From Escherichia phage vB_EcoM_005, in sequence record MK295203: a DNA stretch of 64,000 nt; one strand, 5' to 3'. Position numbers and translations under genes: made by a program. Position 1 is the first letter of the stretch, and the number at the start of each line of letters is the position of its first letter. Shown piece after piece: positions 1,066 to 55,800 of this stretch. Under the pieces are notes generated by a model, which worked only from the letters and a program-made list of their open reading frames with translations, was not told the origin of the DNA and did no database searches.

Positions 1066-1848
1066 ATGAACATTAAAACACGTAAAGAATATTCTCGATA
1101 TGATTTTGATACCACACGTCGTATCGCTATTGACCGTCTGGCAGACTTTGGCCATATTTGTAATGGTAATTATACTTATGGTGTAGGTCGTAAAGGAACT
1201 TATATTGGTTCTTTGAACGATTATTGCCGTTGCCCGGCCCACCTGTTTGGTGCAACATTGCGAGCTAATATCAAAGACCTCTTGGCTACAGCAGGGCGTA
1301 TTTCTACGGTTCCTGTTAATATCAAAAATATTAATTTTACAGCTCGTAACCTGGTCATTAATATTTTGGCAGACGGTATTCAAGTTCGTTTCCGTCCTAC
1401 CTCAAAAGGTAATAAAGCCCTTCGTGAAGCATTTGAAACCGTTAATGTTAAACTAACTCGCGAATATCTTTTGTCTTACGCCCCTTATCAATCCCAACAA
1501 AAGGAACCACAAATGGAACGTCGTATCTCTATCTCTACATCTGCGGTATCATGTGACAGCGTAGGCCAGTATGCAGCCTATGACAAATTCAAAACCACCG
1601 CTGTGCCGAGTCCATTCAATTCCAAACCGTATCATTGGAAAATTGCACCTGATAATTCTATGGTGGTTACTAACCCTACGATGAAACCTATCGAGAAGTA
1701 TCATGAGGACTACATCCAGGAATCAATCCACCGTTTAAACGGTCAAATCGAAGATGAGAAAAAGAGTATCCAAGACGTATTGATTCGTATCAAGAACATG
1801 GAACTCCAGCGTGACAAGCTCCGCGCGGCAGTATTAGCTCTAAAATAA
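1066..1848 (+). CDS. hypothetical protein
   Basis: 260-aa ORF; ATG immediately after upstream stop (track ORF 1042 uses an earlier in-frame start). Confidence 0.45.
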   Translation: MNIKTRKEYSRYDFDTTRRIAIDRLADFGHICNGNYTYGVGRKGTYIGSLNDYCRCPAHLFGATLRANIKDLLATAGRISTVPVNIKNINFTARNLVINILADGIQVRFRPTSKGNKALREAFETVNVKLTREYLLSYAPYQSQQKEPQMERRISISTSAVSCDSVGQYAAYDKFKTTAVPSPFNSKPYHWKIAPDNSMVVTNPTMKPIEKYHEDYIQESIHRLNGQIEDEKKSIQDVLIRIKNMELQRDKLRAAVLALK

Positions 1849-1907: not shown

Positions 1908-2819
1908 ATGACTCGTACTGAATACATCAATGCCTTTACTACGTATATCACTGCTGCCACCCCTCCATTAACCCCATACGAGGTAATAGTTTCTAATATC
2001 AATAAATGGGTAGACCAAATTGATGAAGCACTATCTGGTTGTTTCAAAGATGAAATCGAAAAGATTGCGAGTCGTTTGTTTATTTCTGATATCACGGAAA
2101 CTTTTAAAGGTTCTCGTTTGCTTTCACGCCTGGTCAATAAGGACATCCTTTCAGAGTTTGGCAAAGAGAAACATCCAGGTTCCAGCCATGTTGTTAGCTA
2201 TCAATGGTTTGGTGACGTTTTAAAAAGCTATGTCAAAATTAAAGGTGCCGATCCTAGTGGCCTATTTCCACAACGTTGGGCTGGTGAATTTAAGGCTAAC
2301 TCCGCATTAATTCTAAAAGCAGCAACCAAAACCTTTGTAAAGGGTGATTGTCGTACTATCCACCCTATGGCTAATTGCATGATTAAAACAAACAGCTATA
2401 AAGGGAAGGTACTTATTTCTATTATTTGGTCGCCTAGTCGGAAACCTAAAGAAGTTGAAGTTTCGAAATACCACGATATTTCCTACAATACCCTGAATAT
2501 GGTAGAACAGGCTTTAGCTTTGATGGATACAGTAGAGAAATATGAGATTCAAGAAATCAAACACCACTTAGGCTGGAAAGGATATGAAGTTTTAGTAACA
2601 GTTCGCGAAATCAAATGCCCTGTTCCAAAAACCGACGCTGAAATTTATCAAGAAAAATGTGAGGAAATTGTGAACACTGATAAAGAGCCTGCAACCTTAG
2701 AAGACCTGATTGATGAGCTGAATAGCCCGAGGCTATTGGCCTGTGCACAAATTACTAAATCCAAGTTACCAGAAGTCGTTGCGGACCGTCTTGAACAGGC
2801 TCTGGAGCTGCTGAAATGA
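1908..2819 (+). CDS. hypothetical protein
   Basis: 303 aa; start set at ATG preceded by GAGGAG RBS and early promoter. Confidence 0.5.
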   Translation: MTRTEYINAFTTYITAATPPLTPYEVIVSNINKWVDQIDEALSGCFKDEIEKIASRLFISDITETFKGSRLLSRLVNKDILSEFGKEKHPGSSHVVSYQWFGDVLKSYVKIKGADPSGLFPQRWAGEFKANSALILKAATKTFVKGDCRTIHPMANCMIKTNSYKGKVLISIIWSPSRKPKEVEVSKYHDISYNTLNMVEQALALMDTVEKYEIQEIKHHLGWKGYEVLVTVREIKCPVPKTDAEIYQEKCEEIVNTDKEPATLEDLIDELNSPRLLACAQITKSKLPEVVADRLEQALELLK

Positions 2820-4156: not shown

Positions 4157-5131
4157 ATGCAAGATTTCGGACATTGGGCGGTATTTGAAGAAACCGATAT
4201 TAAAAACCATATTGGATTTGTATACGTAATCACTTTTGAAGATGGCAAAAAATATGTAGGTGCTAAAAAGATTTGGAAACGAATTAAAGCTGCACCTTGC
4301 ACATTTAAACGCGGCCCTAAAAAAGGATTTGAAGAATCTGATTGGAAAACCTATACCTCATCATCTAATGAACTAAACGCAATGATAGAAAAGGGTATAA
4401 GTCCTAAAGAGTACCTTATTGTAGGATGGTATCCTACTTGGGGTAAAACTCTTATGGCAGAAATGGAAATGCAATTAGCCAATGATGTTTTACGAGACCC
4501 TATGTGGCTTAACAAGCAAATTGGCGGACATTTCAACCCTAACTGCTTTGACGATTTAACCGCTGACGAAGTTGGCAAGTATATTAAATCTGGGTGGCAA
4601 TTTGGTCGTTCTAAAACAGAAAAACATTCTGTTACCTATAATTGCTCTAAATTTACTATATGGGACTATCAAGAAAATAAAGCAGTGGAAGTTCTAAATC
4701 AAAATGAGTTTGCTCGTAATAATGATTTAAGTAGCAACCATCTAACTAGACTACTTCAAGGAACTCTCGACCTTATTAAAGATCGCTGGGGACTTCCACC
4801 AGATATTGCTCGTCAGCGTTATAAATTTCAGGACGTTTCTTCAGGAACAAAATTTTTATCTAATTCTGAGTTAGAAGAATTTTACGGTATGACTCGCGGT
4901 CAGGCTAACAAAGCCGTTAAAGATGGAAGAGCCGTTAAATTGGTAGTCGAAAGCAAAGAAGACCACATTAAAAAACTTGGCTCTATCGAATTGGTAAAAA
5001 CCGAAAAGACAAAAGTTACGTCTCAAGTAATGCTTAACAGTTTTAAAGATATAGTTAATCCTATGACCACTGCCGAAAAATCAGAAATGATTGAATGGTT
5101 GGAAAGTTATATAACTTATTTGAAATCTTAA
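4157..5131 (+). CDS. GIY-YIG homing endonuclease (seg-like)
   Basis: N-terminal GFVYVITFEDGKKYVGAKK (GIY...YVG) motif; 324 aa typical of free-standing T-even seg genes. Confidence 0.6.
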   Translation: MQDFGHWAVFEETDIKNHIGFVYVITFEDGKKYVGAKKIWKRIKAAPCTFKRGPKKGFEESDWKTYTSSSNELNAMIEKGISPKEYLIVGWYPTWGKTLMAEMEMQLANDVLRDPMWLNKQIGGHFNPNCFDDLTADEVGKYIKSGWQFGRSKTEKHSVTYNCSKFTIWDYQENKAVEVLNQNEFARNNDLSSNHLTRLLQGTLDLIKDRWGLPPDIARQRYKFQDVSSGTKFLSNSELEEFYGMTRGQANKAVKDGRAVKLVVESKEDHIKKLGSIELVKTEKTKVTSQVMLNSFKDIVNPMTTAEKSEMIEWLESYITYLKS

Positions 5132-5784: not shown

Positions 5785-5983
5785 AATCGAAATCTACGGT
5801 ATCCCTGAGACAGTCATGGATGACAAGCCTCTTATAGTATCATTGGCCAAACGTGCCGGCTTCAAGAGCTTAGCGATACGCTATCCTGTCATATTTGTCG
5901 ATAATAAGAAAATAGAAAATATTCCTGCCTTTAAGTCACTTTTGATTGAACTTGGTTATGACCGAGATTTAATTGAAGATTAG
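5765..5983 (+). CDS. hypothetical protein
   Basis: 72-aa ORF starting MDQKLTK inside track ORF 5585-5983. Confidence 0.35.
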   Translation: MDQKLTKIEIYGIPETVMDDKPLIVSLAKRAGFKSLAIRYPVIFVDNKKIENIPAFKSLLIELGYDRDLIED

Positions 5984-11669: not shown

Positions 11670-13140
11670 GTTAAAGAAAGTAACGTATAAAAATATTATG
11701 TCGGTAGGCCAGCAACCTATTACAATCCAACTTGATAAGGTCCAAAAGACCTTAGTCACCGGTAAAAATGGCGCTGGGAAATCTACGTTCCTTGAAGCCG
11801 TTACATTTGCTCTGTTCGGTAAGCCTTTTCGTGATGTTAAGAAAGGGCAATTAATTAACTCAAGTAATAAGAAAGACCTTTTGGTCGAACTGTGGATGGA
11901 ATATGATGGCAAAGAATACTACATCAAACGTGGGCAAAAACCCAACGTTTTTGAAATCTCTTGTGACGGTGAACGTCTTGATGAATCTGCCAGCAGTAAA
12001 GACTTCCAAGCGGAATTTGAACAGCTTATCGGAATGTCCTACACAAGCTTCAAACAGATTGTCGTACTTGGTACAGCAGGGTATACCCCTTTCATGGGTT
12101 TGTCGACCCCTGCGCGAAGAAAGCTCGTCGAAGACCTCTTAGAGGTTTCTGTATTAGCGGATATGGATAAGCTGAACAAATCTTTGATTCGTGAGACTAA
12201 TAGCCAAATCCAAGTAATCGACGTTAAACAGGATTCTATTACCCAGCAAATTAAAATTTATAATGACAACGAAGAACGTCAGCGTAAATTATCCGGGGTC
12301 ATCGTCGATGATGACCCTAGCGACTCTATGAGTGACCTGAGTAATAAAGGATTTGCAATCAAGAATGATATGGCAACCTTTACTAAGGTCGTGAAATTAT
12401 ACGAAACCGGCGGTAGTTGTCCTACATGTATGCAAGGATTGGAAGAGCACGGAAATATCCTTACTAAAATTAAGGATAAGAATTTTGAGCTTCAAAAATC
12501 TTTGGATAAGATTAATGAGCAGTACCAAGAACTCAAGCTCATTAAGGACCAAGTAACCGAACAACGTAATAAAGCGTTGGCTATTAAATCTCAGATAGCT
12601 ACTCATAAGCAACAAGCCATTACTGCCGTAGAGAAAGCTAAAAAAGTTAAAGTATTAATCGACCAAGCAGCTGCTGAGTTCGTAAGTAATGCCGAAGAGA
12701 TTGCCGCGCTTCAAGCAGAGCTTGATAAAATCGTCTCTACCAAATCGTCCTTAGTAATGGAAAAATATCATCGTATTATGGAAGCCGACTACGTCTTTAC
12801 ACTGGACGAAGAGTTCAATGAGACGATTAAATCACGTGGACGTGAAGACTTTAGTTATGCTTCATTTTCACAGGGTGAGAAAGCACGTATTGATATCGCA
12901 CTACTTTTTACATGGCGTGATATTGCTTCTAAGGTATCAGGTGTTAATATCAGCACGTTAATTCTTGATGAGGTATTTGACAGTGCTACTGACGCTGAAG
13001 GCGTTAAGACCATTGCAACCATCTTGAATAGCCTTGAGGATACGAACGTGTTCATTATTTCTCACCGAGACCATGACCCACAAGCTTATGGCCAGCATCT
13101 TCAAATGAAGAAAGTTGGACGATTCACGGTGATGGAATGA
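11656..13140 (+). CDS. 46: recombination ATPase gp46 (Rad50-like)
   Basis: Walker A GKNGAGKST, signature SFSQGEKARI, Walker B TLILDEVFD, H-loop FIISHRDH; coiled-coil middle. Confidence 0.9.
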   Translation: MKTFKLKKVTYKNIMSVGQQPITIQLDKVQKTLVTGKNGAGKSTFLEAVTFALFGKPFRDVKKGQLINSSNKKDLLVELWMEYDGKEYYIKRGQKPNVFEISCDGERLDESASSKDFQAEFEQLIGMSYTSFKQIVVLGTAGYTPFMGLSTPARRKLVEDLLEVSVLADMDKLNKSLIRETNSQIQVIDVKQDSITQQIKIYNDNEERQRKLSGVIVDDDPSDSMSDLSNKGFAIKNDMATFTKVVKLYETGGSCPTCMQGLEEHGNILTKIKDKNFELQKSLDKINEQYQELKLIKDQVTEQRNKALAIKSQIATHKQQAITAVEKAKKVKVLIDQAAAEFVSNAEEIAALQAELDKIVSTKSSLVMEKYHRIMEADYVFTLDEEFNETIKSRGREDFSYASFSQGEKARIDIALLFTWRDIASKVSGVNISTLILDEVFDSATDAEGVKTIATILNSLEDTNVFIISHRDHDPQAYGQHLQMKKVGRFTVME

Positions 13141-17098: not shown

Positions 17099-19711
17099 AT
17101 GCAAGAATTCTATTTGACAGTCGAACAAATCGGTGATAATATTCTCGAACGTTACATCGATAAAAATGGTAACGAACGTAGTCGTGAAGTTCCTTACAAG
17201 CCTACAATGTTTATGCATGCTAATCCAGAGCAAGCCGTAAAATACATTGATATCTATGGTAAGGGTTGTGTTAAGAAAGAATTCGACTCTATGCGTGATG
17301 CATCCCAATGGATGAAACGTATGGACGATATGGGTCTCGAAGCCCTGGGTATGGACGACTATAAATTAGCCTATTTGTCTGATACCTATCGTAAAGAAAT
17401 CAAATACGATTCTTCTAAGATTCGTATTGCTAACTTCGACATCGAGGTAACATCTCCTGATGGATTCCCTGAACCAGCTCAGGCTAAACATCCTATCGAT
17501 GCCATTACCCACTACGACTCGATTGACGATAAATTCTATGTATTCGACCTTTTAGTTTCACCTTATGGTACCGTTGAAGAGTGGTCTATTAAAATCGCTG
17601 AGAAACTCCAAGAAGAAGGTGGTGACGAAGTTCCACAAGAAATCATTGACAAAATCGTTTATCTTCCGTTTAATTCCGAAGAAGAAATGATGCTTGAGTA
17701 TCTGAATTTCTGGCAGCAGAAAACTCCTGTTATTTTGACTGGTTGGAACGTTGAGTCGTTTGACGTACCATACGTTTATAACCGTCTGAAAAATCTGTTT
17801 GGTGAGAACACTGCTAAGCGATTAAGCCCACACCGTAAGACTCGTGTTAAAGTTATCGAGAACATGTATGGTGCTCGTGAAATTATTACACTGTTCGGTA
17901 TCTCTGTTCTGGATTATATCGACCTTTATAAAAAATTCAGCTTTACCAACCAGCCTTCTTATTCTTTGGATTATGTTTCTGAATATGAATTGAAAGTAGG
18001 TAAGTTGAAATATGATGGTCCAATCTCCAAGTTACGTGAGACGAACCACCAACGATATATTTCCTATAACATTATCGACGTATATCGTGTAGTGCAGATT
18101 GATATGAAACGCCAGTTCATTCTTCTGAGTTTGGACATGGGTTATTATGCTAAGATGCAGATTCAGTCGGTGTTCAGTCCAATTAAGACTTGGGACGCTA
18201 TTATCTTTAATAGCCTTAAAGAACAAGGCAAGGTCATTCCACAAGCTCGTTCACACGTGGTCCAACCTTATCCTGGTGCTTTCGTTAAGGAACCTATTCC
18301 TAACGCATACAAATATGTAATGAGTTTTGACCTTACATCTCTGTACCCGAGTATTATTCGACAAGTGAATATAAGCCCAGAGACCATCGCAGGCACATTC
18401 GCTAATGCACCGATACATGAATATATTGCCGGAACAGCTCCGCGTCCTAGCGACGTCTACAGTTGCTCTCCTAACGGCATGATGTACTATAAAGACCGTG
18501 ATGGTGTGATTCCTACAGAAATCACTAAGGTGTTCTTACAACGTAAAGAACATAAAGGTTATATGCTTGCAGCTCAACGTAATGGCGAGTTAATTAAAGA
18601 AGCATTAGAAAATCCTAATCTGTCAGTTGATAGTCCACTGGATATCGATTATCGTTTTGACTTCTCTGACGAAATCAAAGCCAAGATTAAAACGCTGTCA
18701 GCACCTTCTTTAAAAGAAATGTTGTTCAGAGCCGAACGTACTGAAGTCGCAGGTATGACTGCTCAGATTAACCGTAAGTTGCTTATCAACTCCCTTTATG
18801 GTGCACTTGGTAACGTATGGTTCCGTTACTATGACCTCAGGAACGCAACTGCAATCACACTGTTTGGTCAAATGGCCCTCCAATGGATTGAACGTAAGGT
18901 TAACGAATATCTGAACAGCGTGTGTAAGACTGAAAATCAGAAGTTCGTGCTCTATGGTGATACTGACTCCATTTATGTTAAGGCAGATGCAATCATCAAT
19001 AAAGTAGGCGAAGATAAATTCCGTGACACTAACCACTGGGTCGACTTCTTAGATAAATTTGCACGTGAACGTATGGAACCGGCTATTGATGCAGGCTTCC
19101 GTGAGATGTGCGAGTACATGAACAACAAACAACACTTGATGTTCATGGACCGAGAAGCTATCGCAGGTCCTCCACTTGGTTCTAAAGGTCTTGGTGGATT
19201 CTGGACAGGCAAGAAACGTTATGCACTTAACGTTTGGGACATGGAAGGCACTCGTTATGCCGAACCACACTTGAAAATCATGGGTCTCGAAACTCAGAAA
19301 TCAAGTACACCTAAAGCGGTTCAGAAAGCTCTGAAAGAATGTATCCGTCGTATGCTTCAGGAAGGCGAGGCATCTTTGCAAGAATATTTCAAACAGTTTA
19401 ATAAGGAATTTAACGAACTGGACTATGTAAGCATTGCAGCAGTATCCAGTGCTAACAACATCGAGAAATATAATGAAGGCGGATTGGTATATGTACTGCC
19501 ACTTAAAGAAGGCAACCCATTCGGTGAAGCCTGTATGGCATGGCCGTCAGGTATTGAACTTCCGATTCAGATTCGTGACCAAGTCCTCCGTTGGATGGAC
19601 TACAACGTACTGTTCCAAAAGACCTTTATCAAGCCTCTGACTGGTTTTACCGAGTCTGCTAAAATCGACTACGAGAAAAAAGCAACATTATTTGACATGT
19701 TTGACTTTTAA
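17099..19711 (+). CDS. 43: DNA polymerase gp43 (family B)
   Basis: 870 aa from MQEFYLTVEQIG; exonuclease FDIEV, pol motifs SLYPSII, NSLYG, YGDTDS; closest in my recollection to the RB69 polymerase. Confidence 0.95.
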   Translation: MQEFYLTVEQIGDNILERYIDKNGNERSREVPYKPTMFMHANPEQAVKYIDIYGKGCVKKEFDSMRDASQWMKRMDDMGLEALGMDDYKLAYLSDTYRKEIKYDSSKIRIANFDIEVTSPDGFPEPAQAKHPIDAITHYDSIDDKFYVFDLLVSPYGTVEEWSIKIAEKLQEEGGDEVPQEIIDKIVYLPFNSEEEMMLEYLNFWQQKTPVILTGWNVESFDVPYVYNRLKNLFGENTAKRLSPHRKTRVKVIENMYGAREIITLFGISVLDYIDLYKKFSFTNQPSYSLDYVSEYELKVGKLKYDGPISKLRETNHQRYISYNIIDVYRVVQIDMKRQFILLSLDMGYYAKMQIQSVFSPIKTWDAIIFNSLKEQGKVIPQARSHVVQPYPGAFVKEPIPNAYKYVMSFDLTSLYPSIIRQVNISPETIAGTFANAPIHEYIAGTAPRPSDVYSCSPNGMMYYKDRDGVIPTEITKVFLQRKEHKGYMLAAQRNGELIKEALENPNLSVDSPLDIDYRFDFSDEIKAKIKTLSAPSLKEMLFRAERTEVAGMTAQINRKLLINSLYGALGNVWFRYYDLRNATAITLFGQMALQWIERKVNEYLNSVCKTENQKFVLYGDTDSIYVKADAIINKVGEDKFRDTNHWVDFLDKFARERMEPAIDAGFREMCEYMNNKQHLMFMDREAIAGPPLGSKGLGGFWTGKKRYALNVWDMEGTRYAEPHLKIMGLETQKSSTPKAVQKALKECIRRMLQEGEASLQEYFKQFNKEFNELDYVSIAAVSSANNIEKYNEGGLVYVLPLKEGNPFGEACMAWPSGIELPIQIRDQVLRWMDYNVLFQKTFIKPLTGFTESAKIDYEKKATLFDMFDF

Positions 19712-23866: not shown

Positions 23867-24657
23867 GTCTGTTTATCGTTCCTATTTTCAGTATGCGTAG
23901 TTACGAAACAGGTGAATATGCCGTCCTTAAGGACGGTAATTTTCAACTCCATTTAAACCGTGCTCGCCCAGGTGATTATCTGGCTTATCCTAGAAATTCG
24001 AGCGATATCAAAGAATGTATTGAATTGTTTCCTGAACTGAATTTTGTGCCACTTTGGTATAAAGAAAATGCTTATGAAACTCGTAAACATTTTTGGTCTG
24101 AAAATGAGTTCGTCGTTGATTCATTAATTGAATACTATGACTGTTCAGGCTTAGTAACCGATATCACAGGTTATGATGGCACTCAGACTGTACAATTCAA
24201 CTTTAACATTACAATGGACCCTGAAGTTCCTCGTTATTATATCGATGAGTTTATTGATATCGACGTGTCTTCAGTTGAACGTTCGATTTATACTACAGTC
24301 CTGAATCAATGCCAGAAAGACGTCCTGGTGTCACGAGGTGCGTCCTCTGATAAGATTTTTGTAGACCAAAAGGTAATTAATCCCGCAGTAATTGAGCGTT
24401 ACTCTGAAGGTCTAGCGCCTATTAAAATTGATGGTATTTTCCATCCATTCCGTATCTCAGATAAATGCTACCAATTCGAAAGAGTTGTAGACCAAGCTGC
24501 GGCCGTATATTATCAGATTCTGAAATCAAGACCTCATATCATTTATCATGAGAATCCTGGTTTAGTATTCCATCCTGGTCTGGCTGAATTCATTTATTTC
24601 GGTGCCCACATCCATTCTGAGCACGAAATGCCAAGTTATGAGGACGTAGTATGCTAG
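23863..24657 (+). CDS. hypothetical protein at the T4 beta-gt position (candidate DNA glycosyltransferase)
   Basis: 264-aa ORF between gp42-like gene and uvsX; contains a DxD-like FIDIDVSS motif; no confident fold assignment. Confidence 0.45.
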   Translation: MSLFIVPIFSMRSYETGEYAVLKDGNFQLHLNRARPGDYLAYPRNSSDIKECIELFPELNFVPLWYKENAYETRKHFWSENEFVVDSLIEYYDCSGLVTDITGYDGTQTVQFNFNITMDPEVPRYYIDEFIDIDVSSVERSIYTTVLNQCQKDVLVSRGASSDKIFVDQKVINPAVIERYSEGLAPIKIDGIFHPFRISDKCYQFERVVDQAAAVYYQILKSRPHIIYHENPGLVFHPGLAEFIYFGAHIHSEHEMPSYEDVVC

Positions 24658-30676: not shown

Positions 30677-30927
30677 GTTTTGTAGACAGAGAATTTGCTT
30701 TAAGAGCTTTTCAAACACTGCCAAAATTTAGACAAGTTACCGGAAGCGATTTTAAGCTTAACGCAAGGTGCCCTATTTGTGGTGACTCACAGAAAGACGA
30801 ACATAAAGCTCGTTTTTGGGCTTATCCTGTGAATGATGGTGGCATTATGTTGCACTGCTTCAATTGCGATGCTAGTTTAGGAATTAAGAAGTATCTATAC
30901 GAATACGAGCCTGATTTATATCGTTAA
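30673..30927 (+). CDS. 61: DNA primase gp61, N-terminal zinc-binding domain as a separate ORF
   Basis: FKLNARCPICGDSQKDEHKARFW...HCFNC matches my recollection of the T4 gp61 zinc ribbon; ORF stops after EPDLYR. Confidence 0.8.
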   Translation: MSFVDREFALRAFQTLPKFRQVTGSDFKLNARCPICGDSQKDEHKARFWAYPVNDGGIMLHCFNCDASLGIKKYLYEYEPDLYR

Positions 30928-30940: not shown

Positions 30941-31144
30941 GAAAAGCTTAATTTCTGTGAACGATTAGATAGAATGCCAAACGACCATCCTATTATCAAA
31001 TATGTGACACTACGTTGCATTCCTGAAAACAAATGGAATCGTGAAAAGCTTAATTTCTGTGAACGATTAGATAGAATGCCAAAGGACCATCCTATTATCA
31101 AATATGTAACACTACGTTGCATTCCTGAAAACAAATGGAATCGC
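30941..31144. repeat. tandem duplication, 2 x 102 bp (in frame) within primase
   Basis: two copies differing at 3 positions. Confidence 0.8.
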
Positions 31145-31496
31145 TTATGGTTTACTAAAGAATGGCCGGCATTGGTGAACTCTGTCAATCCAGGGACCTA
31201 TTCTAAATTGAAATGCCTGAGCCTCGTTTGGTTATTCCAATTTTCAATAAGAATAAACAAATTGAAAGTTTTCAGGGTCGAGCCTTACGTAAAGATGCTC
31301 CACAAAAATATATTACAATACGTTGTGGTTTACTAAAGAATGGCCGGCATTAGTTAACTCTGTGAATCCAGGGACCTATTCTAAAGAAATGCCTGAACCT
31401 CGTTTGGTTATTCCAATTTTCAATAAGAATAAACAAATTGAAAGTTTTCAGGGTCGAGCCTTACGTAAAGATGCTCCACAAAAATATATTACAATA
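31145..31496. repeat. tandem duplication, 2 x about 178 bp within primase
   Basis: copies nearly identical; copy 1 carries a small indel and the period is not a multiple of 3. Confidence 0.8.
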
Positions 31497-31592
31497 AGTT
31501 GGTGTGGGTAATGGAAGGCCCTATTGACTCTTTGTTTGTTCCGAATGCAATAGCAATTACTGGCGGGTCGTTGGACTTGGCTATGGTTCCAT

Positions 31593-31690
31593 GTAAAGAA
31601 ACTCGTGCCTGGGTAATGGACAATGAACCCCGCCATCCGTTGTAAAGAAACACGTGCCTGGGTAATGGACAATGAACCCCGCCATCCTGA
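31593..31690. repeat. tandem duplication, 2 x 49 bp within primase
   Basis: GTAAAGAAAC(T/A)CGTGCCTGGGTAATGGACAATGAACCCCGCCATCC repeated. Confidence 0.8.
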
Positions 31691-35584: not shown

Positions 35585-35963
35585 ACTAGAATTCTTTGTT
35601 CGTGATTCTGCCAGACAAACACGTCCTTATGATGCTACGCCGTGTCTTATCCTTGTCGATAATGGTACGAATTCTATAACCCAGTTAGAAACACGATTAA
35701 AAGATATTTGTTATCGTTATCCGGCAGACCCATATACCGAAGGAACAATGGACCTTTTCTATAAAGATACCGATAGAATGTCCAATGAACGTCTTAAAGG
35801 CCGTACTTATCTGATTTCCGCTACCGAAGACCTTACTGAAGTCGAACGTCAGATTTGGAAACACTTTGATATTGGATTGCGCTTTACCATGACTGAAGAC
35901 GCTATTTTTGATGCTAAGGTACGAGCTCGTATGTACGAATACGGTCCTATCGGTGGTTACTAA
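35571..35963 (+). CDS. hypothetical protein
   Basis: 130-aa ORF. Confidence 0.45.
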
Positions 35964-38318: not shown

Positions 38319-38618
38319 GTGATGTACTATGCATACGTATTAGTTCACAAGGACAAAGATGGGTATGAAATTCCATTGGAATATGAAGGAAAGGTGACCT
38401 TATATTCCACAAAAGCCGCTGCTGATTTCGAATGTGCTGGGTATTCATACACTACAAAACAATATTTAAGTAAGGGACGCATTGAAACAGTGTACACACC
38501 TAGAAAATGGTGGTTTGATAAGCGGGAAACAAAAACCGTATATCCTACTGAAGAACGGGCCCGAGAACTTAAATTAGTTTTAGACACTTTATATGTTAAG
38601 CGAGTAAAATTGGCATGA
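38319..38618 (+). CDS. hypothetical protein
   Basis: 99-aa ORF. Confidence 0.45.
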   Translation: MMYYAYVLVHKDKDGYEIPLEYEGKVTLYSTKAAADFECAGYSYTTKQYLSKGRIETVYTPRKWWFDKRETKTVYPTEERARELKLVLDTLYVKRVKLA

Positions 38619-39819
38619 TTACATTTGAAGACTTGAACATCGGCCAGAGGACGGCTTTTAAAGAAATCATTGAAGCTATTAAACGACGTAAGGGTGAATG
38701 GATTACATTGAACGGCCCTGCTGGTACGGGTAAAACAACCCTTACCAAATTTATTCTTGACCATCTAGTCAAGAATGGTGAACTCGGTAACAACGCGAAG
38801 CTCCTGACTTGAGCAAATGTAATGTGCTGGTTGTTGATGAAGGCTCGATGATTGACGGTAAGCTGTTTAAGATTATCGAATCTTCCGTGCCTCCATGGTG
38901 TACTGTATTAGGGATTGGCGACAGAGCTCAGCTACAGCCAGTGGAACCGGGAAGTGATGGTAGTCCACAGTTGTCTCCGTTCTTTACTCATCCAAAAATC
39001 AAGCAATTGCATTTGACCGAAGTAATGCGTAGTAATGCTCCTATTATTGAGGTGGCTACGGAAATCCGTAATGGTGGATGGTTTAGAGATTGTGTATTCG
39101 AAGGACACGGTGTCCATGGCTTTAAATCTCAAACTGCTTTAAAAGATTTTATGATGAATTATTTTTCCATCGTAAAAGACGCGGATGCCTTATTTGAAAA
39201 TAGGATGTTTGCTTATACAAATAAATCGGTTGAAAAGCTGAATAGCATTATTCGTAAAAAGCTTTATGAAACCGATGCACCTTATATCAAGGGTGAAATC
39301 CTAGTGATGCAAGAGCCTTTTATTAAGGAACTTGAATACGACGGTAAGAAATTCTCTGAAACCATTTTTAATAACGGCCAAATGGTTCGTATTCTGGATG
39401 TGAACCACACCTCATTGTTCTTGTCTGCCAAGGATGTAGGCACCCGTCAAATGATTAATTACTGGGACCTGCAAGTAGAATCCGTTGATGAAGACGACGA
39501 GTACTACGTAGAGCATTTAAAGGTTATCGATGAGGCTTCGGTTGAGAAGTTCCATTATTTCTTGGCTAAGGTTGCTACTGAGTACAAAGCCATGCGTGGT
39601 AGTGGTAAGAAACCTAAGTGGGCCGATTTTTGGAAAGCTAAGAGAATGTTCACTAAGGTTCGAGCTCTTCCTGTGAGCACTGTTCATAAATCGCAGGGCC
39701 TCACAGTCCAGAACAGTTTCATCTATACACCGTGTATGCATATGGCTGATGTGAGTTTAGCTTCACAGCTAGCTTATGTTAGTATTACTCGTGCTCGTAC
39801 TGATGCTTATTACGTTTGA
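38615..39819 (+). pseudogene. dda: DNA helicase Dda, split by internal deletion and frame change
   Basis: N-terminal ORF with Walker A NGPAGTGKTTLTKFI stops at 38812; second ORF from 38809 resumes at APDLSKCNVLVVDEGSM (Walker B); about 43 residues including motif Ia are missing. Confidence 0.75.
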
Positions 39820-39826: not shown

Positions 39827-40066
39827 ATGATTAAAGTAACTAAAGACCAATTTTATAAGTTGAAATTTGAAACTGAATATATTATTAAGGTCAACCAAGA
39901 CGATACCAATATCAGTGGCAAGGCTCATAAGGTCTTGCATTCTCTTAAAGAGATTGAAAGTGATTTTATTGCAATACAAAAACTGATGGACGACAATATC
40001 TCTTCGGTTTATATTGAAGACTACACCGTCGGCCAAATCCGAGACCTTATGAGGTATGTTAAATGA
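39827..40066 (+). CDS. hypothetical protein
   Basis: 79-aa ORF from internal ATG with RBS. Confidence 0.4.
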   Translation: MIKVTKDQFYKLKFETEYIIKVNQDDTNISGKAHKVLHSLKEIESDFIAIQKLMDDNISSVYIEDYTVGQIRDLMRYVK

Positions 40067-40482
40067 AAGATATAATTATTGACTTTGAAACCTTTGCCAC
40101 TACCCAAAATGCAGCGGTTATCGACCTCGCCGTAATTGCTTACGACCCTAATCCAGCCTTTGACTTTCCTATCTTAGTCGACCTAATCCGTGATGCTTAT
40201 CGTTCTGAAGGTGTTCCTGAGAATGAAATTGATACCAGTAAATTAGAACCGGTTAAATTCTGGAACCAACGCGATATCCGTACAGCCATTGAAGCATATT
40301 CACTAACTCGTGGATTGAGCATGTGTCCTCTGCCTAACGGAACATTGAAGGGCTTTGTTGCTCATGACTCCATCCATGACTGTGCTAAGGATATCTTGAT
40401 GCTGAAATATGCCCAACGATACGCCTTGAGCCTGGAAGATGTCCCTGAGAATCCAGACCCATTAAGTATAAAAAATCGATAA
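40063..40482 (+). CDS. dexA: exonuclease A DexA (DEDDh), with large internal in-frame deletion
   Basis: IIIDFET (motif I) and HDSIHDCAKDILML (motif III) match my recollection of T4 DexA; 139 aa versus about 227 aa in T4. Confidence 0.7.
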   Translation: MKDIIIDFETFATTQNAAVIDLAVIAYDPNPAFDFPILVDLIRDAYRSEGVPENEIDTSKLEPVKFWNQRDIRTAIEAYSLTRGLSMCPLPNGTLKGFVAHDSIHDCAKDILMLKYAQRYALSLEDVPENPDPLSIKNR

Positions 40483-43141: not shown

Positions 43142-44989
43142 ATGATTAAGAATGAAATTAAAGTACTGTCCGACATTGAACATATCAAAAAACGTAGTGG
43201 GATGTATATTGGCTCCAGTGCTAATGAAGCTCACGGTCGATTCCTGTTTGGTAATTTTACACAGGTAAACTATGTTCCTGGACTGGTTAAATTAATTGAC
43301 GAAATCATTGATAACTCTGTCGATGAAGCTATTCGTACCAATTTTAAATTCGCAAACAAAATTGATGTTCAAATTAAGAATAACCAGGTTTCGGTTTCTG
43401 ATAATGGTCGTGGTATTCCACAAGCAATGGTTACCGACCAAAACGGTGAACAGATTCCAGGTCCTGTAGCCGCATGGACTATTCCAAAGGCAGGTGGTAA
43501 CTTTGGAGATGACGCTGAGCGTAAGACAGGTGGCATGAATGGTGTCGGTAGTAGTTTAACTAATATCTTCTCTGTTTTGTTCACAGGCATCACCTCTGAT
43601 GGTGAGAATGAGATTACTGTCAACTGTTCCAATGGAATGGAAAACAAAGGTTGGTCTACTAAGAAATCTAAAGGTAAGGGTACTTCGGTTATATTCACTC
43701 CGGACTTTAATCATTTCGAAGAAAATAGCCTGTCACAAATTTATCTGGATATTACATTAGACCGATTGCAAACTCTGGCCGTAATTTATCCTGATATTCA
43801 ATTTACTTTTAATGGTAAAAAAGTAGATGGCAACTTTAAAAAGTATGCTAAGCAATTTGGTGAAGACTTTGTAATCCAAGAAACTGATAACGTTTCGATG
43901 GCATTTACTCCTTCTCCGGATGGGTTCCGTCAACTGACTTATGTAAACAATATCCACACCAAGAATGGCGGTCACCACGTTGAATGCGTATTCGATGATA
44001 TCTGTGAGCACCTTCTGCCAGGTATTAAAAAGAAATACCGTGGAATTGAAGTGACTAAAGCTCGTGTTAAAGAATGCCTTACGATGGTGATGTTCATTCG
44101 TGATATGAGCAACATGCGTTTTGATTCACAGACTAAAGAGCGCTTAACATCTCCTTTTGGTGAGATTCGTAATCATATCCAAATTGATGCTAAGAAAATT
44201 GCCACAGCTATTCTTAAGGTCGATGGGTTGATTATGCCTATCGTTGAAGCCGCTTTAGCACGTAAATTAGCAGCTGAAAAGGCCGCCGAAACTAAAGCCG
44301 CTAAGAAAGCTTCTAAAGCCAAGGTCCATAAGCATATTAAAGCTAACTTATATGGCAAAGATGCTGATACAACCCTGTTCCTAACCGAAGGTGATTCCGC
44401 TATGGGTCCTTTCATTGAAGTTCGTAATAAAGACCTTCAAGGCGGTTACCCATTACGTGGTAAGGTTATGAATACCTGGGGAATGACAGCAACAGATATC
44501 ATGAAGAACAAGGAACTATTTGATATCTGTGCAATCACTGGATTGGTTATTGGTGAACCTGCAGAGAAAACCAACTATCGTAATATCGCCATCATGACCG
44601 ATGCCGATGTGGATGGTACTGGTTCGATTTATCCATCATTGCTAGCCTTCTTTAGTCAATGGCCTGAATTGTTCGAACAAGGCCGAGTACGATTCTGTAA
44701 AACTCCGGTGATTATTGCTCAGGTTGGTAAAGAACAAGAATGGTTCTATGATGTGCCTAGTTATACCAAAGCTAAGGACTCTCTACCAAAACACTCCATT
44801 CGTTATATCAAAGGACTAGGTTCTCTTGAGAAGGCTGAATACCGTCGAATGATTCAAGACCCTAAATTTGATGTTGTTCAATTACCTGAAGATTGGAAAG
44901 AACAGTTTGAAATGCTCCTTGGTAATGACCCTCAACTCCGCACGGTTATATCTGGACTGATACTAGACCTCAGTTTGCAGAATACGTGA
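43142..44989 (+). CDS. 39: topoisomerase II ATPase subunit gp39 (GyrB-like), continuous ORF
   Basis: 615 aa; ATPase and TOPRIM-region motifs; covers the region split into 39 and 60 in T4. Confidence 0.9.
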   Translation: MIKNEIKVLSDIEHIKKRSGMYIGSSANEAHGRFLFGNFTQVNYVPGLVKLIDEIIDNSVDEAIRTNFKFANKIDVQIKNNQVSVSDNGRGIPQAMVTDQNGEQIPGPVAAWTIPKAGGNFGDDAERKTGGMNGVGSSLTNIFSVLFTGITSDGENEITVNCSNGMENKGWSTKKSKGKGTSVIFTPDFNHFEENSLSQIYLDITLDRLQTLAVIYPDIQFTFNGKKVDGNFKKYAKQFGEDFVIQETDNVSMAFTPSPDGFRQLTYVNNIHTKNGGHHVECVFDDICEHLLPGIKKKYRGIEVTKARVKECLTMVMFIRDMSNMRFDSQTKERLTSPFGEIRNHIQIDAKKIATAILKVDGLIMPIVEAALARKLAAEKAAETKAAKKASKAKVHKHIKANLYGKDADTTLFLTEGDSAMGPFIEVRNKDLQGGYPLRGKVMNTWGMTATDIMKNKELFDICAITGLVIGEPAEKTNYRNIAIMTDADVDGTGSIYPSLLAFFSQWPELFEQGRVRFCKTPVIIAQVGKEQEWFYDVPSYTKAKDSLPKHSIRYIKGLGSLEKAEYRRMIQDPKFDVVQLPEDWKEQFEMLLGNDPQLRTVISGLILDLSLQNT

Positions 44990-45664: not shown

Positions 45665-47677
45665 ATGATTATTGAAACCGAAAAAGAACAAATCATTGGT
45701 AATGGCGCTAAGTCCACAGGCTTTACTATCCAGGCATCGCCTAAGGTCTTTAAAATTCTGTCATCAGACCTTTATAGTAATAAAGTACGTGCTGTAGTAC
45801 GCGAACTGATTACTAACATGATTGATGCTCATATTCTGAATGGTAATAAAGAACGTTGGAAAGTACAGGTTCCTGGTAAACTGGACCCACGTTTCGTATG
45901 CCGTGATTTCGGTCCGGGCATGAGTGATTTCCAGATTCGTGGTAATGATGAAGAACCGGGGCTGTATAATTCTTATTTTGCTTCTTCTAAAACCTCTTCT
46001 AACGATTTCATCGGTGGATTTGGACTTGGTTCAAAATCTCCATTCAGTTATACGGAAACGTTTAATATCACGTCATGGCATAACGGTGACACAGTTCCTG
46101 TAGATGAGTCAGATTTCCGTAAGTTTGAAACCGAAATTCGTTATATCATGCGCCCATTTGTTGGTCTTGGGGATGTTGACGGTGTTGAAGTTAATTATTT
46201 CCCTGAATTCGAAGACTACTACCCAGTAACTGATACAGGTTATGGCGATTTCGAACGTTCAGGTCTTTATGCTGTTTATGGTGGTATTGTCTACCCATTA
46301 GATTCAGCTTATAATAAAGGCACATGGATGCGTACTCGTCACGATGTAGTTTATATTAAGTTCCCTATGGGTTCACTGGATATTGCTCCGTCTCGTGAAG
46401 TGCTGTCTCTTGATAAACGCACGATGGAAAATATTGCAACCCGTATCGAAGCACTGGATGCAGTGGTCTTTAAAAATGATACTAAGGAATGGGTTGAATC
46501 CGATAATCCACGTCATGTTTATCGTGACCTCTCTAACCTTGGTTATAGTGCTCGTGATTATCTTTCTAAAAGAGGTATTACTAAACAGTTCACAACTGAA
46601 AAATTAACATACGAGAAATTATACCAGCGTTATACACTTCAAAACGACCTTCTTAATTTAGGCGTTGTTTACGAAGTTTGTATGGACCCACGTTTGAAAC
46701 GAATTAAGTCGAGTGGTAATACTTCTTCAGTAGCAGGACTTAGTAATTCTGCTTCAGCCAAGAAAATTGTTAAAGAGCACAATATTCCTAAATACGGAAC
46801 TGACCTTATTTTCGTCGACCCTAATTCAATGTTGCAAATGCAGCAGCTTGAAAAGGTTAAAGAACTTTTTAAAGGTGATACAATTCATTTTTATAAAGTC
46901 TCTGAACTGAATAAAATTGTTAAGCCATGGATTCCGGTTACTGTTCGTTCATCAGAACCTCGGCCTAAAACACCAAGTGCTTATCGTTGGTTCATTAAAG
47001 ATGGGCGCTGGCAAACCGAGACCATGTATTTGACCGCTGCAGAAGCAGAAGAAATTACAGGTTATGTGCTGTTCGGCAGCCGTTCTGATATCATGGGAAT
47101 GGATGAAGCTTATGGTATCTTTGACATCAATACCACTACCATGTGCCGTATGGCCAATTTGATTGGTGCTACCGAATTCCATATCATTCGCCCTCAGATT
47201 GCCAAAAAGATTAAAAAGTTAGGCCAGTGCGAATGCTTGATGGAAACCACGTTAGAAGCTTATGCCGAAGCATTAGATGCTGTAGATATTGATGATTATA
47301 TTGGCAGTAATACCCGTGCAAGGTATTATCTTGAAATCATCGCTAAGTTCCCTGAGCTTGGTTTCATGACTAAGTATTTCAGTGACAAGCCAGTGTCTGA
47401 AACATATACTCGTCTGAGCAATTTCTATGATATATTCCGTTATATGAATTTCCATGGTTATATCACTGATGATAAATTGAATATCACCAAGAGAATTTGT
47501 AACAATACGTTTAATACGTTAACCAATAATGCTTCAAGCAACAATGATAAAATGACTGTACAGTTTGAATCCGATTACCATTTAGTTTCGGACTACATGT
47601 ATCGTCGTGGAACATCCATTACCGAGGCTTCTGTAGCTCAAATCGTTAAATTCATGAAAGCCGTGGAAGCGGCTTAA
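45665..47677 (+). CDS. rIIA: RIIA protein
   Basis: 670 aa; N-terminal IGNGAKSTGF, LYSNKVRA..RELITN, RFVCRDFGPGMS, IGGFGLGSKSPFSY match my recollection of T4 rIIA. Confidence 0.9.
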   Translation: MIIETEKEQIIGNGAKSTGFTIQASPKVFKILSSDLYSNKVRAVVRELITNMIDAHILNGNKERWKVQVPGKLDPRFVCRDFGPGMSDFQIRGNDEEPGLYNSYFASSKTSSNDFIGGFGLGSKSPFSYTETFNITSWHNGDTVPVDESDFRKFETEIRYIMRPFVGLGDVDGVEVNYFPEFEDYYPVTDTGYGDFERSGLYAVYGGIVYPLDSAYNKGTWMRTRHDVVYIKFPMGSLDIAPSREVLSLDKRTMENIATRIEALDAVVFKNDTKEWVESDNPRHVYRDLSNLGYSARDYLSKRGITKQFTTEKLTYEKLYQRYTLQNDLLNLGVVYEVCMDPRLKRIKSSGNTSSVAGLSNSASAKKIVKEHNIPKYGTDLIFVDPNSMLQMQQLEKVKELFKGDTIHFYKVSELNKIVKPWIPVTVRSSEPRPKTPSAYRWFIKDGRWQTETMYLTAAEAEEITGYVLFGSRSDIMGMDEAYGIFDINTTTMCRMANLIGATEFHIIRPQIAKKIKKLGQCECLMETTLEAYAEALDAVDIDDYIGSNTRARYYLEIIAKFPELGFMTKYFSDKPVSETYTRLSNFYDIFRYMNFHGYITDDKLNITKRICNNTFNTLTNNASSNNDKMTVQFESDYHLVSDYMYRRGTSITEASVAQIVKFMKAVEAA

Positions 47678-51472: not shown

Positions 51473-51685
51473 ATGATTATCCTAGTTTTTATTGAACTTA
51501 TTATGGCTATTGTCTGTTCAGTTTGCTTCTTTTTAGGTGTGTGGACCCCTGGTCCGGTATTCTTAAGTTTTCTGTTTATTGGCTGGATTCTTTCTACTTC
51601 TGCCGGTTTACTTAAGATGATTAAAAATCTCCGATGTTATTATGGCTATTCATTCACTAGTATGGTAAAATTATGGCTGATGTAA
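51473..51685 (+). CDS. small membrane protein
   Basis: 70 aa, two hydrophobic segments, immediately upstream of 52. Confidence 0.4.
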   Translation: MIILVFIELIMAIVCSVCFFLGVWTPGPVFLSFLFIGWILSTSAGLLKMIKNLRCYYGYSFTSMVKLWLM

Positions 51686-52860
51686 TTGATACCCTTTTTA
51701 AACAGGCTTTAGATGTTTACGATGATTCTTTCACTCGTCGTGACTTAAAAAGTATTATCGACAATGAAGCATTGGCTTATGCAATGTATACTGTCGAAAA
51801 CCGAGCCATTCCAAATATGATTGATGGCTTTAAACCTGTACAACGTTTTGTGGTTGCTCGTTGTCTTGATATGGCTCGTGGTAATAAAGAAAAATTCCAC
51901 AAACTCGCTTCTATTGCTGGTGGCGTAGCCGACCTTGGATATCACCATGGTGAAGGTTCTGCTCAGGAAGCAGGGGCTTTGATGGCTAACACATGGAACA
52001 ACAACTATCCATTGTTAGATGGTCAGGGTAACTTTGGTTCCCGATTGGTTCAAAAAGCTGCAGCCTCTCGTTATATTTTTGCTCGTATCGGAAGTAACTT
52101 TGCAAAAGTTTATAAGGACACAGAATATGCTCCGGTTCATGCGGATGTCGAACATAAGCCACCGGCTTTTTATCTGCCTATTATTCCTACTGTTCTTCTT
52201 AATGGCGTTTCCGGTATTGCAACTGGTTATGCAACTAATATTCTTCCTCATAGTTTTGATTCTGTTAAGAAAGCTGTATTGCAAGTTCTTCAGGAAAAAC
52301 GAGTAACCAAACCCAAAGTGGCTTATCCGGAATTCCGCGGTGAAGTTGTTGAAATTGAACCGGGTAGTTATGAGATTCGTGGAACGTATAAGTTCACATC
52401 TCGAACCCAAATGCATATCACGGAAATCCCGTACAAATATGACCGTGAAACATATGTGGCCAAGATATTAGACCCTCTGGAAGACAAAGGGTATATCACA
52501 TACGATGATGATTGTGATGAGAATGGTTTCGGCTTCAAGGTTAAGATTCGTAAAGAATATGAATTGCCTACTGATGAAGATAAGAAACACGAAAAACTCA
52601 TGAAGGACTTCGGGTTAATCGAACGTCGTTCACAAAACCTGACCGTCATTAATGAAAAAGGTAAACTTAAGGTTTACGAAGATGCAGTTGAACTGATTCG
52701 TGATTTCGTTGAGGTCCGTAAGACCTTTGTACAAAAACGTATTGATGGTAAAATCATCGAAACCGAAGAAGCTTTTAAACTGGCATTGGCTAAAGCCACA
52801 TTCATCAAAGATGTTATTGATGGCGTAGTGGTTATCCAAGGTAAGACCGAAAACCACTGA
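51673..52860 (+). CDS. 52: topoisomerase II medium subunit gp52 (GyrA-like)
   Basis: 395 aa; DGFKPVQRFV, LDGQGNFGS, active-site region AASRYIFAR; shorter than the roughly 440 aa I recall for T4, and a +1 frame continues briefly past the stop. Confidence 0.85.
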   Translation: MADVIDTLFKQALDVYDDSFTRRDLKSIIDNEALAYAMYTVENRAIPNMIDGFKPVQRFVVARCLDMARGNKEKFHKLASIAGGVADLGYHHGEGSAQEAGALMANTWNNNYPLLDGQGNFGSRLVQKAAASRYIFARIGSNFAKVYKDTEYAPVHADVEHKPPAFYLPIIPTVLLNGVSGIATGYATNILPHSFDSVKKAVLQVLQEKRVTKPKVAYPEFRGEVVEIEPGSYEIRGTYKFTSRTQMHITEIPYKYDRETYVAKILDPLEDKGYITYDDDCDENGFGFKVKIRKEYELPTDEDKKHEKLMKDFGLIERRSQNLTVINEKGKLKVYEDAVELIRDFVEVRKTFVQKRIDGKIIETEEAFKLALAKATFIKDVIDGVVVIQGKTENH

Positions 52861-53977: not shown

Positions 53978-53989
53978 AGGATGGTTCAA

Positions 53990-55678: not shown

Positions 55679-55800
55679 GCACGACTCATAAGGACAAGAA
55701 GAAAAACTTTAAAGAGTCTAAACGTAAACAGAAACATAAGGGTAAAGGCTATGAGTCATAACTTAGAGAATACCGTAACAGGCATGCGTACACGGGACAT

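What the first reader, a model, noticed from the sequence alone, without database searches (positions are those of the whole stretch)
38615..39819. Dda helicase gene split by an internal deletion that removes helicase motif Ia
The Walker A-containing N-terminus stops at 38812; the rest of Dda resumes 1 nt out of frame at ...APDLSKCNVLVVDEGSM. Relative to my recollection of T4 Dda about 43 residues are missing, including the AAPTHAAK motif Ia region. Dda is non-essential in T4, so this may be real decay.
Basis: partly seen in the sequence, partly recalled or inferred. Interest (0 to 1): 0.45.

Follow-up and report, generated by a model that had tools for sequence, protein, structure and literature searches.

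The report
Split dda helicase: sequence artefact
The phage helicase gene dda really is broken in this sequence, but the break is one of about twenty fixed-size block losses that also damage essential genes, so it is a fault of the sequence record and not gene decay.

Summary
In this Dhakavirus (JS98/IME08-like T4-type coliphage) window, dda is split into a 65-aa Walker-A fragment (38615-38812) and an out-of-frame remainder (38791-39819). Exactly 128 nt present in every relative are replaced by one base, T at 38788. That removes about 42 codons: motif Ia and the 1B pin, T4 Dda residues 57-98.

The "real decay" reading is not supported.
- None of 49 Dhakavirus records shares the junction.
- The remnants carry 21 private substitutions, all synonymous.
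- The junction has no microhomology.
- At least 17 other events in the window have the same format. Thirteen are exactly 100 nt replaced by one arbitrary base. The others are 255/256 nt (dexA), 153 nt (gp52), 94/95 nt and about 112 nt.
- These events hit DNA polymerase gp43, gp46 (twice), gp39 and rIIA (twice).
- The essential helicase gp41 is also split into three frames by two single-base insertions.
- Chains of tandem duplications occur that no relative has.
- Three relatives compared with each other over the same region show only 2-6 block indels, of 51-439 nt.

Fixed block sizes plus a filler base are not biology. The dda split is best read as an assembly or processing artefact. Interest is low.

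The parts
38615..38812 (+). dda 5' fragment: 58 native codons with Walker A (GPAGTGKTT), then 7 out-of-frame codons and a TGA stop
   Evidence: PIF1 and AAA_30 profile positions 2-46
38788..38788 (.). Junction: a single filler base T stands where all relatives have a 128-nt block (motif Ia plus 1B pin)
   Evidence: 49 of 49 Dhakavirus records carry the block
38791..39819 (+). dda 3' remainder in the -1 frame relative to the 5' fragment: motif II (DEGSM), the rest of domain 1A/2A, the SH3 2B domain, and the natural stop
   Evidence: SH3_14 E=2.6e-34; AAA_30 positions 90-171
40063..40482 (+). dexA shortened to 139 aa: 255 (or 256) nt lost in frame at 40156|40157. Same type of event, 1.4 kb downstream of the dda junction
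   Evidence: (all 49 Dhakavirus records span 255 nt more)
1441..1442 (.). Block loss of 99/100 nt inside a hypothetical gene
   Evidence: all three relatives
2783..2783 (.). Exactly 100 nt replaced by filler G
4559..4560 (.). Block loss of 99/100 nt (measured against S3 and E33)
5819..5819 (.). Exactly 100 nt replaced by filler G (nrdH-like gene)
12297..12297 (.). Exactly 100 nt replaced by filler G inside gene 46 (recombination nuclease subunit)
12774..12775 (.). Second 99/100-nt block loss inside gene 46
19485..19486 (.). 99/100-nt block loss inside gene 43 (DNA polymerase). It removes 33 codons that align with RB69 polymerase residues about 796-829
   Evidence: (all 66 full-length matches span about 99 nt more)
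24504..24506 (.). 102 nt replaced by CGT (net -99) in a hypothetical gene upstream of uvsX
35709..35709 (.). Exactly 100 nt replaced by filler T
44941..44941 (.). Exactly 100 nt replaced by filler C. It removes the 3' end and stop of gene 39 (topoisomerase large subunit), the intergenic spacer and the start of the next gene
46089..46090 (.). 99/100-nt block loss in rIIA
46749..46749 (.). Exactly 100 nt replaced by filler C in rIIA
51626..51627 (.). 99/100-nt block loss (small genes upstream of gene 52)
52848..52848 (.). 153 nt replaced by filler C near the 3' end of gene 52 (topoisomerase medium subunit), with a frameshift
55794..55795 (.). 94/95-nt block loss in a small gene upstream of asiA

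Best explanation
The split in dda is not a biological event in a living phage. It is one instance of a non-biological corruption of this sequence. Blocks of fixed, mostly round length (100 nt thirteen times, 128 nt in dda, 255/256 nt in dexA) were dropped and each replaced by one arbitrary base. The same sequence also carries single-base insertions and stutter-like tandem duplications. The underlying genome is an ordinary Dhakavirus whose dda was an intact SF1B helicase gene under purifying selection. Shown: the format, the sizes, that the events are private to the window, and the damage to essential genes. Inferred: that the cause is assembly, polishing or in-silico processing (for example masked or N-filled blocks collapsed to one base). 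Which of these it was cannot be decided from the sequence. Taken at face value, the locus would make only a 65-aa Walker-A peptide. The downstream part could be made only by reinitiation. Neither product would have a complete ATPase site (motif Ia absent; motifs I and II on different chains) or the strand-separating pin, so no helicase would be produced.
For: 1. Against three relatives the window shows 22-25 clean block losses. Of these, 13 are seen in at least two relatives and are exactly 100 nt replaced by 1 nt (net -99). The other private events have the same format: 128 to 1 (dda), 255/256 (dexA), 153 to 1 (gp52) and 94/95.
2. A mismatching filler base is visible at 9-10 of 17 junctions, about 56%. 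That is what one random base predicts, because it is absorbed into a flank with probability 1-(3/4)^2 = 44%. Natural divergence of 3-7% would give far fewer.
3. Control: the relatives compared with each other over the same roughly 68 kb show only 2-6 block indels, of 51, 185, 209, 211, 230 and 439 nt, and none of 99/100.
4. Essential genes are hit. gp43 DNA polymerase lacks 33 codons that all 66 fully covering records keep, including phages only 78-80% identical, and that align with RB69 polymerase. gp46 is hit twice, gp39 loses its stop codon, and gp52 is frameshifted.
5. gp41 is split into three frames by two +1 insertions, while its amino-acid sequence is otherwise identical to a relative's.
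6. Tandem duplications of 47-250 nt with 0-2 nt of filler occur at 30.9-31.7 kb and 55.8-57.5 kb. They are absent from all three relatives.
7. The dda remnants carry 21 private substitutions, all third-position and synonymous. Across 12 genes the counts by codon position are 30/12/210.
8. The dda junction has no microhomology and no slippery site.
9. 0 of 49 Dhakavirus records share the junction, and it is absent from the IMG/VR, metagenome and GTDB contigs.
10. The lost blocks share no motif, have normal GC content and are irregularly spaced.
11. A further net 112-nt loss appears against Bp7 and PSD2002, which are 99.5% identical there.
Against: No reads and no original record were available, so the artefact is inferred from pattern and not seen directly. 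The dda block (128 nt) is not of the modal size (100 nt), so it could in principle be an independent event. dda and dexA are both dispensable in T4 (general knowledge), so a real loss there would be tolerated. Four of the block sizes (153, 95, about 112, and 102 replaced by 3) are not round numbers. The generating process is therefore not fully characterised.
Confidence: 0.9

Rival explanations
1. A real, very recent 127-nt deletion in a viable Dhakavirus. This would be a natural dda-null phage, possibly with a second deletion in dexA, onto which unrelated sequence artefacts are superimposed elsewhere in the record.
For: dda and dexA are non-essential in T4 (general knowledge; dda is listed among the quasi-core genes that become dispensable in some backgrounds, PMC2993671). 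The dda and dexA blocks (128 and 255/256 nt) differ in size from the modal 100 nt. Both reading frames are otherwise open.
Against: The junction has the same format as the other 17 events: one mismatching filler base, no microhomology, and round sizes of 2^7 and about 2^8. No nonsynonymous change, stop or further indel has accumulated in the remnants; 21 of 21 private substitutions are synonymous. None of 49 relatives shares it. The same record has lethal-looking lesions in gp43, gp46 and gp41, so it cannot be trusted for any single indel.
Confidence: 0.05
2. The record is a faithful consensus of a defective or mixed population. It could be a co-assembly of two or more Dhakavirus strains, or of deletion-bearing defective genomes, so the lesions exist in some molecules but not in one viable genome.
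For: Two diverged tandem copies of one locus (54320-54871 and 54903-55454, 87% identical to each other) best match different relatives: 99.3% to ABTNLS3 and 94.9% to E33. That looks like two alleles placed side by side. Copies in the tandem duplications differ by 1-4%, similar to between-strain divergence.
Against: A strain mixture does not explain thirteen losses of exactly 100 nt, each with a filler base. Defective genomes with 33-codon holes in the polymerase would not dominate a consensus. In any case this is still an assembly artefact as far as dda is concerned.
Confidence: 0.04
3. A functional split helicase, or recoding: the two ORFs are joined by programmed frameshifting, or they act as two subunits.
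For: The ORFs overlap by 4 nt (38809-38812), and a TTG or ATG start is available downstream.
Against: The downstream frame is closed by TGA (38779) and TAA (38788), so only 38791-38812 could host a shift, and there is no slippery heptamer there. Even a perfect fusion would lack the 42 residues that carry motif Ia and the pin. No relative has this arrangement.
Confidence: 0.01

Closest known systems
T4 Dda, SF1B (Pif1/RecD2-like) 5'-3' DNA helicase (PDB 3UPU), and its Dhakavirus orthologues (e.g. IME08 Dda, ADI55342.1, 443-445 aa)
   Same: The flanking sequence is an ordinary orthologue. IME08 Dda matches 3UPU at E=4.9e-176 over its full length. The window's fragments are 96-97% identical in DNA to IME08 dda. 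They carry Walker A, motif II, the SH3 2B domain and the C-terminal motifs. The gene order srd - dda.1 - dda - dexA.1 - dexA - motB.2 is as in the relatives.
   Different: 128 nt (T4 residues 57-98: motif Ia and the 1B pin) are missing and the frame is broken. No continuous ORF exists.
Spontaneous deletions in T4-type phages (illegitimate recombination or replication slippage between short direct repeats; general knowledge)
   Same: An internal loss of about a hundred bases within a dispensable early gene.
   Different: There is no direct repeat at the breakpoints and there is an untemplated filler base. The same format recurs at least 17 times with a fixed 100-nt size and hits essential genes. 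Natural indels among the relatives are whole-ORF-sized and of varied length.
Record-level artefacts: collapsed masked or N-filled blocks, mis-joined or wrongly 'fixed' assembly breaks
   Same: Fixed block lengths of 100, 128 and 256; a single placeholder base; placement indifferent to gene boundaries and function; companion single-base indels and stutter duplications.
   Different: The exact tool or step responsible could not be identified. A few block sizes (95, about 112, 153) are not round.

Membership tests
Dda / SF1B helicase (functional gene) | Motif I (Walker A, GxxGxGKT) | tested here: met
   GPAGTGKTT is in the 65-aa ORF. It matches PIF1 and AAA_30 profile positions 2-46.
Dda / SF1B helicase (functional gene) | Motif Ia (AAPTHAAK in T4) within domain 1A | tested here: not met
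   Absent. It lies within the 128-nt block that is missing at 38788. AAA_30 profile positions 47-89 are unmatched.
Dda / SF1B helicase (functional gene) | Domain 1B pin (beta-hairpin protruding from 1A; SF1B architecture as described in PMC4824106) | tested here: not met
   The residues that align with T4 Dda about 80-98 (…STIHRILKINPTTYEDQDIF) are in the lost block. That the pin tip is F98 in T4 is from my own knowledge of the 3UPU paper and was not checked here.
Dda / SF1B helicase (functional gene) | Motifs I and II and the 2A/2B domains on one continuous polypeptide | tested here: not met
   The frame is broken: the ORFs at 38615-38812 and 38791-39819 are in different frames, and there is no slippery site.
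Dda / SF1B helicase (functional gene) | Dda-type SH3 2B domain and C-terminal helicase motifs | tested here: met
   PF18343 SH3_14 E=2.6e-34; UvrD_C_2 E=1.6e-5.
Genuine decaying pseudogene | Relaxed selection or further disabling mutations in the remnants | tested here: not met
   There are 21 private substitutions in the dda remnants. All are third-position and synonymous, with no stops and no further indels.
Genuine decaying pseudogene | The lesion is inherited, meaning it is shared by at least one independent relative | tested here: not met
   0 of 49 Dhakavirus records share it. The junction 25-mer is absent from the IMG/VR, metagenome and GTDB contigs.
Genuine decaying pseudogene | The lesion is an isolated event in an otherwise intact genome | tested here: not met
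   At least 17 further block losses of the same format, two +1 insertions in gp41, and private tandem duplications.
Sequence-record artefact | Recurrent events of fixed size and format, indifferent to function, including in essential genes | tested here: met
   13 events of exactly 100 nt replaced by 1 nt; 128; 255/256. gp43, gp46 (twice), gp39, gp52 and rIIA (twice) are hit. The control among relatives shows none.
Sequence-record artefact | Raw reads or the source record restore the missing blocks | not testable with these tools
   The source genome was not found in any collection. No reads were available.

The most novel reading that the evidence does not exclude
The 128-nt loss in dda, and perhaps the 255-nt in-frame loss in neighbouring dexA, is a true and very recent deletion in a viable JS98-group phage. 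That would be a natural dda-null Dhakavirus, showing that Dda is dispensable in this genus as it is in T4.
Probability: 0.04. Interest if true: 0.2.

Novelty: not a real feature. Interest (0 to 1): 0.05.

Why it matters
For biology it matters very little: there is no evidence here that any Dhakavirus has lost Dda. It matters for the scan. This window carries about twenty private block losses, two frameshifting insertions in gp41 and two clusters of stutter duplications. Any finding from this window that rests on an indel, a truncated gene, a gene fusion or a tandem repeat should be treated as suspect. Most of the block losses are net -99 nt and stay in frame, so a reader sees only the few that shift the frame. 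That explains why dda was flagged while the equivalent holes in DNA polymerase, gp46 and rIIA were not.

Tried and rejected
- **Looking for the same junction elsewhere.** I searched for the exact 25-mer in IMG/VR, metagenome and GTDB contigs and ran BLAST of the junction against 50,697 phage records. Nothing was found.
- **Looking for the source genome, to read its dda.**
  - A strain-specific 32-mer next to the junction found nothing in the three contig collections.
  - Exact-protein look-ups of both dda fragments, DexA, Srd, rIIB and a 567-aa protein were all not on record.
  - MotB.2 was found only in phage MX01, which has an intact 443-aa dda.
  - The E. coli genome and plasmid collections gave no match.
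- **JS98 or JS10 as the source.** Rejected: both are in the collection at only 93-97% identity, and they carry the dexA and gp43 blocks that the window lacks. The JS98 genome paper is not held in the library.
- **Microhomology-mediated deletion.** Rejected: there is no repeat at the breakpoints.
- **Programmed frameshift or a split functional helicase.** Rejected.
- **A common property of the lost blocks (motif, GC, regular grid).** None was found.
- **A layer of random point mutation over the whole window.** Rejected: private substitutions are 83% third-position and mostly synonymous.
- **De Bruijn k-mer-sized losses (99 or 127) without filler.** This fits the net sizes, but it does not explain the mismatching filler base at about 56% of junctions, or the 255, 152, 112 and 94 sizes.
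- **The extra 5' part of the gene-44 ORF as a GIY-YIG endonuclease.** Pfam gave no such hit.

Full report
**What is in the sequence**

The ORF at 38615-38812 encodes 65 residues, MITFEDLNIGQRTAFKEIIEAIKRRKGEWITLNGPAGTGKTTLTKFILDHLVKNGELG followed by NNAKLLT and a stop. It contains a Walker A motif. The rest of a Dda-type helicase, QREAPDLSKCNVLVVDEGSM... to ...ARTDAYYV, reads in a different frame from 38791 to 39819. That frame is closed upstream by TGA at 38779 and TAA at 38788.

**Identity of the window and size of the loss**

The region is 90-97% identical to phages of the genus Dhakavirus (IME08, ABTNLsp5, AnYang, JS98, JS10, Bp7 and others). The gene order is the usual srd - dda.1 - dda - dexA.1 - dexA - motB.2.

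Aligned with IME08, the window reads GAACTCGG-T-AACAACGCG where IME08 has 128 nt between the same flanks. ABTNLsp5, ABTNLS3 and E33 each have exactly 128 nt there, with no mismatch in 24 nt on either side. All 49 Dhakavirus records that match a 101-nt probe across the junction do so in two pieces spanning 127 nt more than the probe.

The lost codons (VILTAPTHAAKKVLSKLAGQEASTIHRILKINPTTYEDQDIF in IME08) align with residues 57-98 of T4 Dda in PDB 3UPU. This segment holds motif Ia and the segment that forms the 1B pin of SF1B helicases (domain layout as summarised in PMC4824106). The detail that F98 is the pin tip is from my own knowledge.

Pfam agrees. AAA_30 profile positions 2-46 are in the first ORF and 90-171 in the second, while intact IME08 Dda covers 2-171 in one stretch.

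**What the locus could do if taken literally**

The interval where both frames are open (38791-38812) has no slippery sequence. Even a perfect fusion would lack motif Ia and the pin. The locus would yield a 65-aa peptide. By reinitiation it might at best also yield a 323-336-aa protein without Walker A. It could not make a helicase.

**Test of the decay reading on the gene itself**

The window carries 21 substitutions in the dda remnants that are absent from three relatives. All 21 are third-position and synonymous, and there are no extra stops or indels. The gene was therefore under purifying selection up to the very tip of its lineage.

The breakpoints have no direct repeat and carry an untemplated base, unlike slippage or illegitimate-recombination deletions. 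The junction occurs in no other record or contig searched.

**The decisive context: the same event recurs across the window**

When the whole window is compared with about 68 kb from each of three relatives, the same kind of event appears again and again at the same window positions, whichever relative is used.

- **Thirteen 100-nt events.** These junctions are seen in at least two relatives. Each is exactly 100 nt replaced by one base (net -99). They lie at about 1441, 2783, 4559, 5819, 12297, 12774, 19485, 24505, 35709, 44941, 46089, 46749 and 51626.
- **Other sizes, same format.** These are 128 to 1 in dda, 255/256 in dexA at 40156|40157, 153 to 1 in gene 52 at 52848, and 94/95 at 55794. 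A net 112-nt loss also appears against Bp7 and PSD2002, which are 99.5% identical there.
- **Filler base.** A filler base that matches neither end of the lost block is visible at 9-10 of 17 junctions. A random base would be absorbed into a flank 44% of the time and visible 56% of the time, which is what is seen. Natural divergence of 3-7% would give a mismatch next to a junction only rarely.
- **Control.** The three relatives compared with each other over the same region show only 2-6 clean block indels, of 51, 185, 209, 211, 230 and 439 nt, and none of 99 or 100.
- **No common property.** The lost blocks share no motif, have ordinary GC content and are irregularly spaced.

**Essential genes are hit**

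- The block at 19485 removes 33 codons of DNA polymerase gp43. The window reads ...KYNEGG-L-VYVLPLKEG..., where the relatives read FPGSKCPYHIKGCLAYMRASAGDLTMPRIVDGEK between those flanks. This stretch aligns with RB69 polymerase residues about 796-829.
- All 66 records that cover that probe keep those 99 nt, including phages only 78-80% identical.
- Gene 46 is hit twice and rIIA twice.
- Gene 39 loses its last codons and its stop, together with the intergenic spacer and the next gene's start.
- Gene 52 is frameshifted.
- The replicative helicase gp41 is split into three frames by two single-base insertions near 26751 and 26918, while its amino-acid sequence within each frame is identical to ABTNLsp5 gp41.

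**Private duplications**

Two regions (30.9-31.7 kb in the primase gene and 55.8-57.5 kb around asiA and the holin gene) contain chains of tandem duplications of 47-250 nt with 0-2 nt between the copies. There is also a 224-nt dispersed copy. None of these exists in the relatives.

**The base genome is natural**

Apart from these lesions, the underlying genome looks natural and selected. Private substitutions fall 30/12/210 on codon positions 1/2/3 across twelve genes.

**Interpretation**

A living T4-type phage cannot plausibly carry 33-codon holes in its polymerase and a three-frame gp41. No mutational process makes thirteen deletions of exactly 100 nt, each patched with one arbitrary base. 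The events are therefore properties of the record and not of the phage.

The dda break has the same format. Its size (128) and that of its neighbour in dexA (255/256) are again round numbers. The best explanation, at about 0.9, is that the dda split is an artefact introduced during assembly, polishing or later in-silico handling, for example masked or N-filled spans collapsed to a single base.

I cannot tell which step was responsible. The allele-like tandem copies at 54.3-55.5 kb best match different relatives, which hints at a mixed-strain assembly. That alone does not explain the fixed block sizes.

Most events are net -99 and stay in frame. This is why only dda stood out to a reader looking for broken frames.

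**Rivals**

- A real, very recent dda deletion cannot be excluded without reads, because dda and dexA are dispensable in T4. It has nothing specific in its favour beyond the atypical block size (about 0.05).
- A mixed or defective population consensus (about 0.04) is still an assembly problem as far as this gene is concerned.
- Recoding or a two-chain helicase is excluded for practical purposes (about 0.01).

**Comparison with known things, and verdict**

The gene is an ordinary orthologue of T4 Dda (SF1B). As written in this window it fails the membership tests for a functional member: no motif Ia, no pin and no continuous ORF. It also fails every test for a genuine pseudogene: no relaxed selection, not inherited and not isolated.

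The finding is not novel and not a real biological feature. Its only value is as a warning about the quality of this window.

**What led nowhere**

The source genome could not be found in any collection, and the JS98 genome paper is not held. The decisive check therefore remains read-level or PCR verification.

Noticed in passing
window 40063-40482 (junction 40156|40157): dexA (exonuclease A) is only 139 aa. 255 (or 256) nt are missing in frame relative to all 49 Dhakavirus records. T4 DexA, as I recall its sequence, also has this segment.
   Followed up: yes
window 19485|19486 (gene 43, ORF 17039-19711): DNA polymerase lacks 33 codons that every one of 66 covering records retains. They align with RB69 polymerase residues about 796-829.
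   Followed up: yes
window 26348-27780 (about 26751 and 26918): gp41 replicative helicase is split into three reading frames by two private single-base insertions. The protein sequence within each frame is identical to ABTNLsp5 gp41.
   Followed up: yes
window 55797-57461: A chain of private tandem duplications: 172, 250, 117, 103 and 60 nt, with copies 97-99% identical and 0-2 nt (15 nt in one case) between them. There is also a 224-nt dispersed copy of 55461-55684 at 56894-57117. These scramble the region around asiA and the holin gene, and no relative has them.
   Followed up: partly
window 30941-31687: Private tandem duplications (101, about 187 and 47 nt) inside the primase (gene 61) region. 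There is also a stretch at 30134-30925 with no match in the three relatives.
   Followed up: partly
window 54320-54871 and 54903-55454: Two tandem copies of one locus, 87% identical to each other. The stretch holding the first copy (53959-54876) is 99.3% identical to ABTNLS3. The stretch holding the second (54903-55791) is 94.9% identical to E33. This looks like two alleles laid side by side and is a hint of a mixed-strain assembly.
   Followed up: partly
window 14531-15967: A 478-aa ORF fuses about 160 unidentified N-terminal residues to clamp-loader gp44. Bp7 and PSD2002 match this stretch at 99.5% but span 112 nt more, so another block loss probably removed the end of a small upstream ORF and the gene-44 start. 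Pfam finds no domain in the extra part.
   Followed up: partly
window 44941 (ORF 43142-44989): A 100-nt block loss removes the stop codon of gene 39 (topoisomerase large subunit), the intergenic spacer and the start of the next small gene. The result is an extended 615-aa ORF.
   Followed up: partly
window 24652-24780: About 129 nt that are absent from the three relatives read as a small hydrophobic ORF (MLGPLLLFIILLLFSFGALLLLCWLEKREVRKIVDKAINRGIK, my own reading of the sequence). This looks like ordinary natural accessory-gene variation and not an artefact.
   Followed up: no
whole window: The underlying genome is a Dhakavirus not present in any searched collection. The best regional identities are 94-97%, locally 99%, and the best match changes from relative to relative along the window. 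Private substitutions are overwhelmingly synonymous.
   Followed up: partly
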